Shown: piece after piece, positions 89 through 22,803 of the stretch
How positions within the stretch are numbered: position 1 is the first letter of the stretch
How the letters are laid out: every line of letters starts with the position of its first letter
Source: a bacterium (Candidatus Gribaldobacteria) CG07_land_8_20_14_0_80_33_18
GTDB lineage: Bacteria > Patescibacteriota > Minisyncoccia > Minisyncoccales > CG1-02-41-26
Assembly: GCA_002779425.1 (NCBI GenBank)
Contig: PEWP01000013.1
Location: 1 to 28,588 of the forward strand
Direction: 5' to 3'
Length of the DNA: 28,588 bases
Notes under the pieces: model-generated
Databases searched by the model: none
Told to the model about the DNA's origin: nothing
The model's input: the letters and a program-made list of their open reading frames with translations, nothing else
Translations under genes and position numbers: made by a program

Positions 89-255
89 TCGCTCGGTAAC
101 GAAATTTCAAAGTACCGACCCTCAAAATCCCAGCGAGATTTTGGGGTCTGTTTTCTCGTCCCGCCACCCCGCTTTTAGCGGGGACCATGCTGGCGGGACT
201 CCGAAGACTACTTTGAAATTTGTTACCTCGCTCCTCTTATTAGTTCGCCTCGCTC
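89..255. repeat. TCGCTC-bounded multi-hairpin intergenic element
   Basis: TCGCTC 89-94; arm GGTAACGAAATTTCAAAGTA 95-114 pairs with TACTTTGAAATTTGTTACC 209-227 (one bulge); internal stems GTCCCGCCA/TGGCGGGAC and CCCCGCT/AGCGGGG; TCGCTC again at 228-233 and 250-255. Confidence 0.75.
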
Positions 256-2602: not shown

Positions 2603-3012
2603 ATGAAAATTGTTATTAAAGCTACTAATATAAAATTAACTGATGTTTTAGAAAAATATACTATTGAAAAATTGACTGGATTGGAGAAATTTTTGAAACC
2701 TGTTTTTGAAAAAACACAATCAGTAATGCATATTGAAATAGGCAAGTTATCAAAGCATCATCGAACGGGCAATATTTTTTATGCCGAAGGTCAGTTATTT
2801 TTACCCGGCAAAATTTTACGAGCAGTAGCGGAAAGGAAAAATTTTAAATTAGCCATAGTTGAAATTAAAGATGAACTTCAAAGGCAATTAAAACATATAA
2901 AGAGAAAGAAATAGTTAAACGTCAAAGGGGAGAGCGAAGGATTAAAAAAGACCTTAAATTATCTGAAGCAGCCAGATTCTATCGGAAAGGAAGAATTAGA
3001 GATGAAGGCTAA
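2603..3012 (+). CDS. raiA: Ribosome hibernation factor RaiA/HPF, apparently frameshifted near 2894-2900
   Basis: N-terminus IVIKATNIKLTDVLEKYTIEKL...YAEGQLFLPGKILRA...AIVEIKDELQRQL is HPF/S30AE-like. Frame 1 stops at 2914; the -1 frame stays open as YKEKEIVKRQRGERRIKKDLKLSEAARFYRKGRIRDEG* to 3012. Confidence 0.75.
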
Positions 3013-3218
3013 TCGCTCGGCAAACTGAGTCGCTCGGCAGCGCTGCTTCGAAGTGCACGCCGTCGGCTAATCAGTAAGAAAAGGTTTATTTCCAGCCGCG
3101 GCTATTACTCGCCAAGCCTTAAATAGTTTATTTGAAAGCGCAAACTCTATCTCGGGCTTGGCTCCGTAATGCACTTCTCATCAGCCATGCCTCGCTCCTT
3201 AATCAGTTTGTCTCGCTC
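3013..3218. repeat. Nested TCGCTC-bounded multi-hairpin element
   Basis: TCGCTC at 3013, 3030, 3192 and 3213. Outer arms GGCAAACTGA/TCAGTTTGTC; inner arms GGCA/TGCC, GCTG/CAGC, GAAGTGCA/TGCACTTC and CCAAGCC/GGCTTGG. Confidence 0.8.
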
Positions 3219-3227
3219 ATTTAGAAA

Positions 3228-3272
3228 TTAGTAGATTAGAATATTTATTAGTAGATTAGGATAATATTTATT
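3228..3272 (+). repeat. Direct repeat upstream of secA
   Basis: TTAGTAGATTAG at 3228 and 3248; each is followed by AATATTTATT (3240 and 3263). Confidence 0.6.
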
Positions 3273-3273
3273 T

Positions 3274-5784
3274 ATGTTTTTATCTAAACTCTTTGGCGCT
3301 TTTTTCAAAGCGCCTAATGAAAAATATTTAGAGAAACTTCAGCCAATTATTGAAAAAATTAATGAACTTGAACCAAAGTTTAAGAGTTTTTCTAAAGAAG
3401 AATTAAAGAAAAAAACCAATGAGCTTAAAGATCGATTAAAAAATGGAGAGAGTTTAAATGATGTTCTGGTGGAAGCTTTTGCTTTAGTAAGGGAGGCGGC
3501 GAAAAGAACATTAGACCAAAGACATTTTGATGTTCAATTAATGGGTGGAATAGTTTTGCATCAAGGAAAAATCGCTGAAATGAAAACCGGAGAAGGAAAA
3601 ACTTTAGCCGCTACTTTACCTCTATATTTAAATGCTTTAGAGGAAAAGGGTTGTCATTTAGTTACGGTTAATGATTATTTGACAAGAAGAGACACTGTTT
3701 GGATGGGACAAATTTATCACGCGCTCGGTTTGTCAGTTGGTTGTATAGCGCATGAGACAGCATATTTATATGACTCGGAATACAAAAAGCCAGCTGAGGA
3801 AAAGGAAAAAACGAGAGATGAATTGGGAGGCTTTTATATTGTTGAAGATTTTTTGAGACCTTGTACCAGAAAAGAGGCGTATTCAGCAGATATTACTTAC
3901 GGCACTAATAATGAATTTGCTTTTGATTATTTAAGGGATAATATGGTTTTTGATTTAAATCAGCAGGTTCAGAGACCTGCCCGCAATGCTTCGCATAGCG
4001 AAGCAGGCGGGGGATTTCACTATGCTATTGTCGATGAGGTCGATTCAATTTTAATTGACGAAGCCAGAACTCCTTTAATTATTTCTCAGCCAGATTTTGA
4101 GTCATCTAAGATGTATAAGGATTTTGCAGGAATAATTCCAAAATTGAAAAAAGATTCTGATTATTTAGTAGATGAAAAAAAGAAAGCAGCTACCTTAACT
4201 GAGGAGGGGATTAATAAACTGGAGAAAATTTTGGGGGTAGAAAACATCTATCAAGAGAAAGGGATAAAATATCTTCATCATTTAGAACAGGCGCTGCGGG
4301 CCCAGGTTTTTTTCGAGCGAGACAGAGATTATATTGTTAAAAATGGCCAGGTAATTATTATTGATGAGTTTACCGGTCGGCTTTTAATGGGTCGGCGATA
4401 TTCCGGGGGGCTCCATCAAGCGATAGAGGCAAAAGAAAGAGTAGAAGTTCAGGCCGAATCAAAGACTTTATCTACTATTACTTTTCAAAATTATTTCCGG
4501 CTTTATAAAAAATTAGGCGGGATGACAGGAACGGCCGCCACCTCAGCCGAAGAATTTGATAAAGTTTATGGTTTAGATGTAATAGTGATTTCAACCAATA
4601 AGCCAATGATAAGAAAGGATTTACCCGATAGAATTTATAAAACAGAGAGAGGAAAATATAAAGCACTTATAGAAGAGATTAAAGAAAGACACAAAACAGG
4701 CCAGCCTCTTTTAGTGGGGACGAGATCGGTTGAGAGAAATGAATATTTATCTAAATTACTTTCTCGGGAAGGAATTTCTCATCAAATTTTAAATGCCAAG
4801 CATCATGAGCAAGAAGGTCAAATTATTGCTCAGACAGGAAGATGGGGAGCTGTGACCATTGCCACAAATATGGCAGGTCGTGGGGTTGACATAATTTTGG
4901 GAGGAAATCCTCAAAATCCAGAAGAAGCAAAAAAAATTATTGGTTTGAATGGCCTCCATGTTATTGGCACCGAAAGGCATGAGGCAAGAAGGATTGACAA
5001 TCAGTTGCGGGGAAGAACAGGGAGACAAGGAGATCCCGGTTCGTCTCAATTTTTTATTTCGTTAGATGATGAATTAATGCGGATTTTTGGCGGAGAAAAA
5101 ATAAAATCTTTAATGGATACTTTTAAATTTCCAGAAGATGAACCAATTGAATTAAAGATAATTTCAAAAACCATAGAAAATGCCCAAAGCAGGGTGGAAG
5201 GATTTAATTTTGATATCAGAAAACATGTTTTAGAATATGATGAAGTAATGAACAAACACCGCGAAACAATTTATAAATTAAGGAAAAGATTATTGGAAGA
5301 ACCGGAAAAAATTCAAACGGAGCGGAGCATTAAAACTCAAATTTTAGAGATTATTGAAAATGAAATTAAGAGAATTGTTGAGAATTATGAATTGTCAGAA
5401 ATTTTTGAAGAGATAAAAACAATTTTTCCTTTATCCGAAGAAGCAATACTAAAGATGAAAGAAATGGAGAAAGAAGAAATTTTTAATTATTTAATTAACC
5501 TGGCAAAAAAAATCTATGAGCAGAAAGAAGAAAAGGATGGAAAAGAAAATATGAGAATACTTGAGAAGATGGTTTATTTGCGAATCATTGATAGTCTATG
5601 GCAAGAACATTTAGAGAACATGGAATATTTAAAGGAGTCGGTTGGTTTACGGGCTTACGGAGGAAGAGATCCTTTGGTTGAATATAAAACCGAAGGCCAT
5701 AAGATGTTTAAAAATTTACTAACTAACATTAATTTCCATCTTATTCGAACCATTTTCAAGCTGACCTTAACTCTTAAGATATGA
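3274..5784 (+). CDS. secA: Preprotein translocase ATPase SecA
   Basis: MKTGEGKT, VTVNDYL, YGTNNEFAFDYLRDN, IVDEVDSILIDEARTPLII, GMTGTA, ATNMAGRGVDI and QLRGRTGRQGDPG. No C-terminal SEC-C motif. Confidence 0.98.
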   Translation: MFLSKLFGAFFKAPNEKYLEKLQPIIEKINELEPKFKSFSKEELKKKTNELKDRLKNGESLNDVLVEAFALVREAAKRTLDQRHFDVQLMGGIVLHQGKIAEMKTGEGKTLAATLPLYLNALEEKGCHLVTVNDYLTRRDTVWMGQIYHALGLSVGCIAHETAYLYDSEYKKPAEEKEKTRDELGGFYIVEDFLRPCTRKEAYSADITYGTNNEFAFDYLRDNMVFDLNQQVQRPARNASHSEAGGGFHYAIVDEVDSILIDEARTPLIISQPDFESSKMYKDFAGIIPKLKKDSDYLVDEKKKAATLTEEGINKLEKILGVENIYQEKGIKYLHHLEQALRAQVFFERDRDYIVKNGQVIIIDEFTGRLLMGRRYSGGLHQAIEAKERVEVQAESKTLSTITFQNYFRLYKKLGGMTGTAATSAEEFDKVYGLDVIVISTNKPMIRKDLPDRIYKTERGKYKALIEEIKERHKTGQPLLVGTRSVERNEYLSKLLSREGISHQILNAKHHEQEGQIIAQTGRWGAVTIATNMAGRGVDIILGGNPQNPEEAKKIIGLNGLHVIGTERHEARRIDNQLRGRTGRQGDPGSSQFFISLDDELMRIFGGEKIKSLMDTFKFPEDEPIELKIISKTIENAQSRVEGFNFDIRKHVLEYDEVMNKHRETIYKLRKRLLEEPEKIQTERSIKTQILEIIENEIKRIVENYELSEIFEEIKTIFPLSEEAILKMKEMEKEEIFNYLINLAKKIYEQKEEKDGKENMRILEKMVYLRIIDSLWQEHLENMEYLKESVGLRAYGGRDPLVEYKTEGHKMFKNLLTNINFHLIRTIFKLTLTLKI
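3976..4011. repeat. 36-nt in-frame palindromic insertion in secA
   Basis: CCTGCCCGCAATGCTTCGCATAGCGAAGCAGGCGGG with stem TGCTTCGC-ATA-GCGAAGCA; encodes PARNASHSEAGG. Confidence 0.9.
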
Positions 5785-15230: not shown

Positions 15231-15619
15231 GAGCTCAAGTAGACAAGGCAATCGCCCTGTTAGATAGAGCTTGTAAGCTCATCATTTAATGGGGAGGAAA
15301 GTCCGAACACCCTCCCGCATATATGCGGGATAAAAAAATAGCGGCTAACAGCCGTCCACCGTAAGGTGAGAGGTGCGAACAGAGACGCTCTAGAACCCGA
15401 AAGGGTTCGGGCCCCTATTCTGCCTTAGGGCAGACGGGTGATCTCCGAGTGAAAACTCGGAAGTGAAACGGCTAAATCCTTATTGGGTGCAAGAACAAAC
15501 TTTCGACAATCTCCGGATTTGTCGAAATGAAAAGTAGTTCGCTTGATCCCGTAAGTAATTATGGGACCAGATAAATGATTGTCTAAAACAGAATTCGGCT
15601 TATTGTCTGCTTGAGCTTT
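15231..15619 (+). ncRNA. rnpB: RNase P RNA
   Basis: P1 GAGCTCAAGTAGAC / GTCTGCTTGAGCTT; conserved GAGGAAAGTCC, AACAGAGAC, TGAAACGG, GGTGCAAG, AGATAAATGAT and AACAGAATTCGGCTTA. Confidence 0.95.
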
Positions 15620-19709: not shown

Positions 19710-19780
19710 GCGAGTGTAGTATAATGGTAGTACGTGACCTTCCCAAGGTTAAAGCGAGGGTTCGATCCCCTTCACTCGCT
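19710..19780 (+). tRNA. tRNA-Gly(CCC)
   Basis: Acceptor GCGAGTG/CACTCGC; anticodon arm TGACC-TTCCCAA-GGTTA; T-loop GTTCGAT; no encoded CCA. Confidence 0.93.
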
Positions 19781-19813
19781 CTGAAAGGGTGGGAGACCAA
19801 TTGAGTAAAATCT

Positions 19814-19885
19814 GCCGGGGTAACTCAGTGGTAGAGTAGCTGTTTCGTAAACAGCAAGTCGCGAGTTCGAATCTCGCCTCCGGCT
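19814..19885 (+). tRNA. tRNA-Thr(CGT)
   Basis: Acceptor GCCGGGG/CTCCGGC; anticodon arm GCTGT-TTCGTAA-ACAGC; T-loop GTTCGAAT; no encoded CCA. Confidence 0.93.
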
Positions 19886-22729: not shown

Positions 22730-22803
22730 TGCGGGGTGATGTAACGGTAGCATGCGAACCTCTGGAGTTCGTCATCTTGGTTCGAATCCAAGCCCCGCAG
22801 CCA
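22730..22803 (+). tRNA. tRNA-Gln(CTG)
   Basis: Acceptor TGCGGGG/CCCCGCA; anticodon arm CGAAC-CTCTGGA-GTTCG; T-loop GTTCGAAT; CCA encoded at 22801-22803. Confidence 0.93.

What the first reader, a model, noticed from the sequence alone, without database searches (positions are those of the whole stretch)
3013..3218. 206-nt nested hairpin: TCGCTC[arm TCGCTC[...]TCGCTC arm']TCGCTC
Seen: two concentric inverted-repeat pairs, each bracketed on both sides by same-orientation TCGCTC. Several mismatches are G-U compatible on the + strand (e.g. GGCAAACTGA/TCAGTTTGTC). The interior sequence is unrelated to that of the 89-255 element even though the ends are similar. Established: REP elements have a short non-palindromic foot recognised by RAYT, and IS200/IS605 ends are hairpins. 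Inference: an element inserted into another copy, or a structured RNA module with conserved ends and variable cargo located between raiA and secA.
Basis: partly seen in the sequence, partly recalled or inferred. Interest (0 to 1): 0.68.

Follow-up and report, generated by a model that had tools for sequence, protein, structure and literature searches.

The report
Structured palindromic mobile repeat in Patescibacteria
The 206-base nested hairpin between the hpf (raiA) and secA genes is one copy of an apparently undescribed family of small, gene-less, hairpin-folding mobile DNA repeats. The family has spread through an order of ultra-small groundwater bacteria and sits between housekeeping genes, right at their stop codons.

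Summary
In detail: 3013-3218 is a nested inverted repeat with four same-strand TCGCTC. It is not unique.

- **Family size.** The 502-kb genome holds at least 10 full copies. A covariance model finds the family in 34 of 151 sampled genomes of the same Patescibacteria order, at 1 to 18 or more copies each.
- **Conserved core.** About 170 nt fold as a three-way junction. 35 of 38 pairs show compensatory changes and 94% of cells are paired. UC/UC internal loops are almost invariant.
- **Mobility.** Two congeneric genomes give occupied and empty sites with 8-9-bp target duplications and IS481-like terminal inverted repeats. Other genomes show 22-66-bp target duplications.
- **Local insertion.** In three relatives hpf and secA abut (0-4 nt), so the 261 nt here are an insertion.
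- **Placement.** Copies mostly lie sense to the flanking genes (42 versus 7). 29 of 51 start within a few nt of the upstream stop codon.
- **TCGCTC.** It is lineage-specific. On the opposite strand it reads GAGCGA, which can pair with itself through tandem G·A.

Which strand folds in vivo, and whether as RNA or DNA, is unresolved. There is no Rfam match, no Y1 transposase, and no association with reverse transcriptase genes. This scan has reported similar stop-codon-hugging hairpin repeats in other Patescibacteria, but not this sequence family.

Verdict: a new variant of a MITE-like element with an unusually conserved structured core.

The parts
2603..2914 (+). hpf/raiA, N-terminal reading frame (Ribosomal_S30AE)
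   Evidence: Pfam PF02482, E 6.8e-10
2896..3012 (+). -1-frame C-terminal tail of HPF, ending at TAA 3010-3012, which directly abuts the element
   Evidence: The frame is read. Orthologues carry an uninterrupted tail ...ARFYRKGRIREEGI*. Contigs from 3 of the 4 metagenome runs cover the shift site (2896-2914) with 0-1 differences (X1, X11, X3).
3013..3029 (+). outer 5' arm: TCGCTC plus GGCAAACTGAG. It partly repeats the start of the inner arm at a 17-nt period.
   Evidence: (D14)
3030..3197 (+). conserved core: stems P1-P2 closing a three-way junction with two hairpins. UC/UC loops lie at 3034-3035/3192-3193 and 3048-3049/3178-3179, and a UC/UCC loop at 3109-3110/3163-3165.
   Evidence: CM R1 hit at 3026-3199, 181.9 bits. 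Covariation. Loop invariance.
3198..3218 (+). outer 3' arm: CTTAATCAGTTTGTC plus TCGCTC
3219..3273 (+). AT-rich tail with a 20-nt tandem repeat (3227-3246 and 3247-3266), running up to the secA ATG. It is part of the inserted material.
   Evidence: Repeat D4. Relatives have 0-4 nt between hpf and secA. Similar (RAAATTA)n tails follow 5 other elements in the genome.
3274..5784 (+). secA, the downstream gene
   Evidence: Pfam SecA_DEAD, E 7.8e-121
89..255 (+). family-1 element, a second structured repeat family with the same kind of ends. Its arm carries the 12-mer TCGGTAACGAAA, also found in the IS481-like terminal repeats.

Best explanation
The 206-nt nested hairpin is one copy of a non-coding, palindromic, MITE-like mobile element.

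**Anatomy.** The unit is a roughly 170-nt three-way-junction core conserved across an order of Patescibacteria, wrapped in lineage-specific outer inverted-repeat arms. In this genome those arms are the TCGCTC-GGCAAACTGA layer, followed by an AT-rich 3' tail.

**Origin of this copy.** The unit was inserted between hpf and secA, which abut or overlap in relatives. The hpf stop codon now touches the element.

**Mobilisation (shown only in another genus).** Mobilisation is in trans. Where the core is bracketed by IS481-type terminal repeats, a DDE (rve) transposase moves it and leaves 8-9-bp target duplications. Copies without such arms insert with 22-66-bp target duplications by a mechanism not yet identified.

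**After insertion (inferred).** The element is read through as part of the operon transcript. Only copies and orientations that fold into a compact rod, and so leave the flanking genes and their expression intact, persist. This would explain the sense bias, the stop-codon adjacency and the compensatory changes.
For: **Multi-copy and widespread**
- At least 10 full copies in the own genome.
- Found in 34 of 151 genomes and 29 of 121 genera of the order, 1 to 18 or more copies each, with a patchy distribution. Also found in MAGs labelled Saccharibacteria or Patescibacteria.

**Mobility**
- Three occupied/empty pairs between the congeners G092 and G148.
- Two of the three pairs have clean direct duplications of 9 and 8 bp. 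The third is ambiguous at 10-28 bp.
- The arms are imperfect terminal inverted repeats, GTAGTTGCTAACC...GGTTAGCAACTAC. They are specific to two genera.

**Link to a transposase**
- A 544-bp element in G092 with the same terminal repeats holds an rve_3 remnant (E 1.9e-6, above the curated cut-off).
- G000 contig C11 encodes an IS481-like transposase (NF033577, E 1e-53).
- The 12-mer in that contig's terminal repeats occurs exactly four times in the genome: in both IS ends and in the two family-1 elements.

**Insertion at this site**
- The hpf-secA spacer is 4, 1 and 0 nt in G001, G013 and G017, against 261 nt here.

**Placement**
- 42 sense against 7 antisense between co-directional genes.
- 29 of 51 upstream stop codons lie within -5 to +8 nt of the core.
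- The neighbours are operon pairs such as rpsB-tsf, nusG-rplK, rplW-rplB and dnaK-dnaJ.
- No terminator-like site, and no promoter-like site on the + strand, was found.

**Structure under selection**
- 94.3% of cells are paired, and 35 of 38 pairs show double changes.
- The covariation score is 0.53, against 0.18 when shuffled and at most 0.09 when slid.
Against: - For the G000 copies themselves, no empty site in a close relative, no significant target duplication (p = 0.16) and no IS481-type outer terminus could be shown. Mobilisation here is inferred from other genera.
- A DDE transposase does not need an internal fold. It therefore does not explain why the core and its invariant loops are conserved across an order while the arms are not.
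- The 22-66-bp duplications do not fit any DDE transposase.
- The antisense strand folds more stably in 54 of 62 copies. This fits poorly with an RNA role of the sense strand.
- No transcript data are available.
- The Logan contigs showed no empty allele at this site.
Confidence: 0.6

Rival explanations
1. It is primarily a functional, cis-acting RNA element of operon transcripts. Candidate roles are an intercistronic processing or stability signal (as T7 RNase III sites, REP/BIME, ERIC or Correia hairpins are), or a scaffold that holds the stop codon of one gene next to the start codon of the next. Under this view its spread is secondary. This overlaps with the best explanation rather than excluding it.
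For: - Structure and loop nucleotides are conserved across an order although the outer arms change.
- Sense bias is 42 to 7, and the element fills the whole spacer between co-directional housekeeping genes. The start codon follows 3-20 nt after the stem base.
- The same gene pairs are occupied in different genera: rplW-rplB and pilC-pilin.
- One position has U-G in 21 copies on the sense strand.
- No terminator or promoter is predicted on the + strand.
Against: - No expression data.
- The sense strand is the less stable fold in 54 of 62 copies.
- C-A mismatches, which become G-U on the other strand, outnumber G-U by 73 to 47.
- About 77% of sampled genomes of the order lack it, including most of the own family. 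It is therefore dispensable.
- Copies at the same site in different genomes resemble the other copies of their own genome more than they resemble each other.
Confidence: 0.25
2. It works as folded single-stranded DNA, or as a cruciform, on the G/A-rich strand opposite to the genes. A structure-specific enzyme would recognise it, in the manner of REP/RAYT, IS200/IS605 ends, integron attC or Ssn-bound NTS hairpins, or it would be copied by replication template switching. That strand carries tandem G·A pairs where the sense strand has UC/UC.
For: - The antisense strand is more stable in 54 of 62 copies, by 7.7 kcal/mol on average. It also has the better z-score with DNA parameters.
- Invariant UC/UC loops become GA/GA, and TCGCTC becomes GAGCGA, which is self-pairing as GA-GC-GA (what the sequence shows).
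- Long, variable target duplications of 22-66 bp do not fit a DDE enzyme.
- In G092:C1 all three copies lie on one strand although the local gene direction changes.
- Small stand-alone GIY-YIG genes are present in these genomes. Ssn nucleases bind repeated hairpins (PMC11893778).
Against: - No Y1 transposase was found.
- The small GIY-YIG genes sit in other hairpins, in RNase P RNA, in 23S rRNA and next to a tRNA. They are not next to this family.
- The U-G site with 21 copies favours the sense strand.
- For family 1 the sense strand has the better z-score.
- The 8-9-bp duplications with terminal inverted repeats in G092 are classical DDE signatures.
Confidence: 0.12
3. It is a SINE-like retroposon: a structured RNA with a simple-repeat 3' tail, copied by a reverse transcriptase, which would produce variable target duplications and 5'-truncated copies.
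For: - Target duplications are variable and long.
- (RAAATTA)n tails of variable length lie 3' of the elements in G000.
- One copy is 5'-truncated (C23).
Against: - No RVT_1 in G000, and none listed in the high-copy genomes G092, G142, G063, G071 and G087.
- RT genes and the element overlap in 7 genomes of the 151, where about 8.3 are expected by chance.
- Terminal inverted repeats and fixed 8-9-bp duplications in G092.
Confidence: 0.03

Closest known systems
MITEs derived from IS481/IS3-type (rve, DDE) insertion sequences
   Same: - Small, non-coding and multi-copy.
- Terminal inverted repeats.
- 8-9-bp target duplications and presence/absence between congeners.
- A decayed element with the same ends carries an rve_3 remnant.
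- An IS481-like transposase in G000 shares a 12-mer of its terminal repeats with family-1 elements.
   Different: - The interior is a deeply conserved, covarying three-way junction with invariant loops, while the terminal repeats differ between lineages.
- Many copies have no recognisable IS-type ends, and these show 22-66-bp duplications.
- Orientation bias is strong.
Transcribed palindromic repeats of other bacteria: Correia/NEMIS (Neisseria), ERIC/IRU (enterobacteria), REP/BIME
   Same: These are imperfect palindromes of 100-200 nt in intergenic spacers of operons, close to stop codons. From my own knowledge, not tested here, they are thought to be co-transcribed and to affect mRNA processing or stability.
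   Different: - No sequence relation and no Rfam match.
- The fold is a branched three-way junction rather than a simple hairpin.
- No RAYT.
- The hosts are ultra-small Patescibacteria genomes.
Rickettsia palindromic elements (RPE)
   Same: These are selfish palindromic repeats tolerated in very compact genomes. They can contribute the last codons and the stop codon of genes. Here ORFs run into the element at C5:9915 and C5:5868.
   Different: - RPEs are typically found in frame inside genes, whereas this family is almost always between genes.
- There is no sequence relation. The comparison rests on my own knowledge.
Ssn (GIY-YIG) nucleases with NTS/SRM hairpin repeats (Chenal et al. 2025, PMC11893778)
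   Same: A repeated hairpin present in many copies around genes, with small stand-alone GIY-YIG genes in the same genomes.
   Different: The GIY-YIG genes of G000, G092 and G071 are not adjacent to this family. They sit in other hairpins within RNA genes. No binding or cleavage evidence exists.

Membership tests
MITE (non-autonomous DDE-transposon derivative) | Short, no coding capacity, many copies per genome | tested here: met
   170-250 nt. At least 10 copies in G000 and up to 18 or more elsewhere.
MITE (non-autonomous DDE-transposon derivative) | Terminal inverted repeats | tested here: met
   G092 and G142 copies have GTAGTTGCTAACC...GGTTAGCAACTAC. In G000 the nested arms are inverted repeats, but no IS-type terminus is present.
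MITE (non-autonomous DDE-transposon derivative) | Short target-site duplication of fixed length | tested here: inconclusive
   8-9 bp in four G092 copies, but 22-66 bp in ten copies of other genomes. Not significant for the window's copy (p = 0.16).
MITE (non-autonomous DDE-transposon derivative) | Presence/absence at orthologous sites | tested here: met
   Three G092/G148 pairs. hpf-secA is empty in G001, G013 and G017.
MITE (non-autonomous DDE-transposon derivative) | An autonomous partner with the same ends | tested here: inconclusive
   Only a decayed 544-bp element with an rve_3 remnant in G092, and an IS481-like IS in G000 that shares a 12-mer with family 1. No intact partner for family 2.
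REP/BIME with RAYT | A Y1 (HUH) transposase gene, RAYT, in the genome | tested here: not met
   PF01797 was not found in a genome that is 99.7% complete.
REP/BIME with RAYT | 20-40-nt palindrome with a conserved GTAG-type foot | tested here: not met
   The unit is about 170 nt and branched. The TCGCTC foot is not conserved in relatives.
IS200/IS605-derived palindromic elements (PATE) | No target duplication, separate hairpins at each end, and a Y1 transposase or TnpB partner | tested here: not met
   Target duplications are present, the ends pair with each other, and there is no Y1 transposase. TnpB was not searched.
Integron attC | R''/R' core sites (RYYYAAC / GTTRRRY), arrays of cassettes and an IntI integrase | tested here: not met
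   No such core sites appear in the sequence. Copies are scattered behind housekeeping genes. IntI was not searched.
Any Rfam 15 RNA family | Match to a curated covariance model | tested here: not met
   No match over the elements at the gathering score, or at E up to 10 and 5, over the window and eight other copies.
SINE-like retroposon | A reverse transcriptase available in the genomes that carry it | tested here: not met
   G000 has no RVT_1 and the high-copy genomes checked are not listed with any. There is no association across 151 genomes: 7 overlap, about 8.3 expected.

The most novel reading that the evidence does not exclude
The conserved three-way-junction core, with its invariant tandem UC/UC (GA/GA on the other strand) loops, is a self-contained structured nucleic-acid module that propagates on different vehicles. 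One vehicle is a pair of IS481-type terminal repeats. The other is a 'naked' form that inserts with 22-66-bp target duplications, which rebuild the ends of the genes it lands in. That second route would point to an undescribed, structure-dependent insertion mechanism, or to a real function of the fold that makes hosts keep it.
Probability: 0.3. Interest if true: 0.8.

Novelty: new variant of a known kind. Interest (0 to 1): 0.6.

Why it matters
Patescibacteria have some of the smallest and most tightly packed bacterial genomes, so dispensable DNA is expected to be rare. Yet one structured repeat makes up roughly 0.4% of this 502-kb genome. It sits inside core operons such as ribosomal proteins, rpoC, dnaK-dnaJ and hpf-secA.

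- **If the fold acts in RNA**, it is a widespread, uncatalogued cis element of operon expression in a major uncultured lineage.
- **If the fold acts in DNA**, the long target duplications that regenerate gene ends point to an insertion route not known from classical bacterial transposons.
- **In practice**, these repeats break short-read assemblies and create false gene ends and starts, so knowing the family helps annotation of such genomes.

Tried and rejected
- **Rfam.** Searches at gathering and permissive thresholds found nothing over the elements.
- **Y1 transposase (RAYT, IS200/IS605).** Absent.
- **IS66 and IS256-type transposases.** Absent from G000 and four high-copy genomes.
- **Reverse transcriptase.** No association with the element across 151 genomes.
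- **Small GIY-YIG (Ssn-like) genes.** Present, but located in other hairpins and not next to this family.
- **RNA sequencing runs.** None was listed.
- **Logan contigs of four DNA runs.** They break inside the element and show no empty-site joint.
- **Genome-collection pattern scan.** My pattern was too loose and returned mostly chance matches in GC-rich genomes. Only 5 of 9 tested loci were real members.
- **A long target duplication around the window's copy** (ATTAGAGATGAAGGCTAA against 3247-3264). Not significant, p = 0.16.
- **The 98-nt hpf-secA spacer of G005.** It looked like a decayed copy by eye, but the model does not support it.
- **Strand assignment from wobble pairs.** Conflicting: G-U 47 against A-C 73, each concentrated at a few positions.
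- **My early idea of two swapped tip types.** Dropped after more copies were aligned. The tips are simply degenerate terminal repeats.
- **Literature searches.** No description of such repeats in Patescibacteria was found.

Full report
**Setting.** The window is contig C34 of a 502-kb, 33% GC genome of 57 contigs, estimated 99.7% complete. It comes from aquifer or groundwater metagenomes. The finding lies between hpf/raiA (Ribosomal_S30AE) and secA.

**Observation.** TCGCTC stands at 3013, 3030, 3192 and 3213, all on the + strand. The window has 17 copies of the hexamer against 6.98 +/- 2.16 in shuffles. The outer arms GGCAAACTGA/TCAGTTTGTC and the inner arms 3036-3057/3170-3191 pair. The 221-nt stretch folds into a rod ending in a three-way junction. 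With RNA parameters z is -4.4 on the + strand and -6.3 on the - strand. With DNA parameters z is -2.6 and -4.0. The region is a GC island of about 0.49 in 0.2-0.3 surroundings.

**It is a family.** BLAST, nhmmer and a covariance model (R1, built from 10 copies) find 10 full copies and 2 fragments in the own genome. The 89-255 element has 2 further relatives. R1 finds the family in 11 of 61 close relatives. In an even sample of the order it finds it in 34 of 151 genomes and 29 of 121 genera, with 1 to 18 or more copies each. Members also occur in MAGs labelled Saccharibacteria or Patescibacteria. No Rfam family matches.

**Structure.** I aligned 62 copies from about 40 genomes.
- 94.3% of cells form standard pairs and 35 of 38 pairs show changes on both sides.
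- The covariation score is 0.53. It is 0.18 in shuffles (0 of 500 reach the observed value) and at most 0.09 with slid partners.
- Three internal loops are almost invariant. UC/UC lies between P1 and P2 (60, 59, 59 and 54 of 62). UC/U(G/C)C lies in the second hairpin (62, 61, 62 and 61 of 62). UC/UC lies at the stem base in about three quarters of copies.
- The junction CAC, a single U and a bulged U are also nearly invariant.

So TCGCTC in this genome is two UC mismatches around a self-complementary GC. It is not a direct-repeat foot. In relatives the bases outside the UC covary as a helix, for example AAAGCC-TC-GG...CC-TC-GGCTTT in locus L027.

**Which strand folds?** This is unresolved.
- The sense strand is C+T-rich. 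The opposite strand folds more stably in 54 of 62 copies, by 7.7 kcal/mol on average.
- On the opposite strand the invariant loops read GA/GA, the classical stable tandem G·A motif (established knowledge). TCGCTC becomes GAGCGA, which can pair with itself as GA-GC-GA.
- Wobble evidence conflicts. One pair has U-G in 21 copies on the sense strand. Two pairs have C-A in 15 and 20 copies, which would be G-U on the other strand. The totals are 47 against 73.
- For family 1 the sense strand has the better z-score.

**Placement.** Between co-directional genes the element is sense in 42 cases and antisense in 7. In 29 of 51 cases the co-oriented upstream gene stops within -5 to +8 nt of the core. In relatives the next gene starts 3-20 nt after the stem. 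The neighbours are housekeeping operon pairs: dnaK-dnaJ, rplW-rplB (twice), rpsB-tsf, nusG-rplK, mraZ-rsmH, pilC-pilin (twice), lysS-serS and rpoC. Some ORFs run into the element and take their stop codon from it. No terminator-like site, and no + strand promoter-like site, is predicted around 3013-3218.

**Mobility.** G092 and G148 belong to one genus and their flanks are 91-95% identical. Three G092 copies are missing at the same sites in G148.
- The inserts are about 240 bp.
- Two of the three pairs have clean direct duplications: TGTAAACTG/TGTAAACTA, which contains the upstream TAA, and ACCTTAAC/ACCTTGAC.
- The third duplication is ambiguous at 10-28 bp.
- Eleven G092 copies share about 30-nt outer arms that are imperfect terminal inverted repeats. 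Two more copies show 8-9-bp duplications by eye.
- This terminal repeat occurs in G092, G148 and G142, but not in G000 or G063.
- The same arms enclose a relative of the 89-255 family, which still carries its own TCGCTC feet.
- Across genomes the opposite is true: the core is conserved and the arms are not.
- Core-less arms are deletion derivatives, because they keep half of P1.
- In G142 the interior is inverted inside the arms in some copies.

**Partner.**
- A 544-bp G092 element with these terminal repeats holds an rve_3 remnant (E 1.9e-6, 27.9 bits against a cut-off of 26.5).
- G000 contig C11 (1.4 kb) encodes a transposase closest to IS481 (NF033577, E 1e-53, below the curated cut-off; also rve and rve_3). 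Its terminal repeats begin with TGT.
- The 12-mer TCGGTAACRAAA occurs exactly four times in G000: in both IS ends and in the family-1 elements at C34:93 and C15:3149.
- The G092 arms carry GGTAACAAAT at a similar distance from the tip.
- An IS481-type enzyme is thus a plausible mover of armed copies. That IS481 elements make 4-15-bp duplications is my recollection, not tested here.
- IS66, IS256 and Y1 transposases were not found.

**A second mode.** Ten of 60 copies, mostly without such arms, are flanked by long direct duplications of the target, 22-66 nt (z from 9 to 46).
- The duplications contain gene ends, so an intact gene is regenerated. Examples are 62 nt with the fusA start (L040), 55 nt with the rpoC end (L047) and 42 nt with the start of a membrane protease (L048).
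- In L056 the two 66-nt copies differ at 8 positions, all synonymous.
- In L047 the arrangement is X-E-X-E'.
- In G091 and G147 the same site is occupied in both species, with species-specific duplicates.
- This does not look like DDE transposition.
- Reverse transcription gets no support from gene content. G000 has no RVT_1 and the high-copy genomes checked are not listed with any. The overlap across 151 genomes is at chance level, 7 against 8.3 expected.
- The mechanism is open. Widely staggered nicks, template switching and recombination with foreign alleles are my own suggestions.

**This site.** hpf-secA synteny holds in nine relatives. The spacer is 4, 1 and 0 nt in G001, G013 and G017, and 49-99 nt with other small hairpins in five more. 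A ninth relative, G044, has a 936-nt spacer. None carries this family. Orthologous HPF proteins end ...ARFYRKGRIREEGI/M*. In G000 that tail stands in the -1 frame, lacks only the last residue, and stops at the TAA that touches the element. The 261 nt between that TAA and the secA ATG are therefore inserted material: arms, core and the AT-rich tail. Similar (RAAATTA)n tails follow five other elements, out of ten such arrays in the genome. A target duplication for this copy is not significant. Logan contigs of four runs end inside the repeat and show no empty allele.

**Reading.** The best-supported account is a MITE-like mobile repeat whose interior is an unusually conserved fold.
- *Shown:* family, distribution, structure and covariation, presence/absence, short duplications with terminal repeats in one genus, long duplications elsewhere, and insertion at hpf-secA.
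- *Inferred:* co-transcription, selection for a compact fold and for orientation, and the IS481-type mover for G000.

The conserved core and invariant loops are not explained by a DDE transposase. They keep open an RNA function or a DNA-structure-dependent mechanism.

**Relation to this scan.** This scan has reported similar stop-codon-hugging hairpin repeats in other Patescibacteria genomes, one of them with structure favoured on the strand opposite the genes. Sequence look-up found this family only in the present window. Literature searches found no description.

Noticed in passing
window 2896-3012: hpf/raiA is split by a -1 frameshift near 2896-2914. The -1 frame encodes the conserved tail ...ARFYRKGRIRDEG*, which orthologues have in frame. 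Contigs from 3 of the 4 metagenome runs cover the shift site with 0-1 differences, so it is not an error of this assembly alone. Whether it is a pseudogene, a programmed shift or a population-wide mutation is open.
   Followed up: partly
window 3219-3273; G000 C12:~9573(-), C15:3306-3358, C23:3078-3112, C49:~4521(-): Arrays of the heptamer RAAATTA lie directly 3' of the elements and run up to the next start codon. Five of the ten such arrays in the genome follow an element.
   Followed up: partly
G000 contig C11 (locus L262:1-1399): A 1.4-kb contig holds an IS481-like (rve) transposase gene with terminal inverted repeats of about 30 bp that begin with TGT. It is the only rve hit in the genome.
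   Followed up: yes
G000 C3:4966, C18:6359, C27:5078, C41:2037-2492, C44:13935-14964: This is another short GC-rich repeat set, built on CTCGCT-TCGCTC-G with small hairpins. It is distinct from the families studied here.
   Followed up: no
G000 C37 and C5 downstream of elements; loci L022, L033: ATTCGTA/TACGAAT heptamer runs follow several copies.
   Followed up: no
loci L274 (G092:C6), L273 (G071:C19), G000 C33:382-615: Small stand-alone GIY-YIG genes of 77-86 aa sit inside hairpins of RNA genes: in RNase P RNA in G092, in 23S rRNA in G071, and next to a tRNA in G000.
   Followed up: partly
locus L056 (G084), 1434-1499 and 1690-1755: The two 66-nt target copies flanking the element differ at 8 positions, all synonymous for the upstream protein's C-terminus. 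It looks as if one copy came from a diverged allele.
   Followed up: no
locus L047 (G109), 1452-1800: The arrangement is tandem: rpoC end, element, rpoC end again, then a second variant element.
   Followed up: no
window 15236-15617, 19710-19885, 22730-22803: RNase P RNA (class A, 126.9 bits) and tRNA-Gly, tRNA-Thr and tRNA-Gln. These are ordinary.
   Followed up: no
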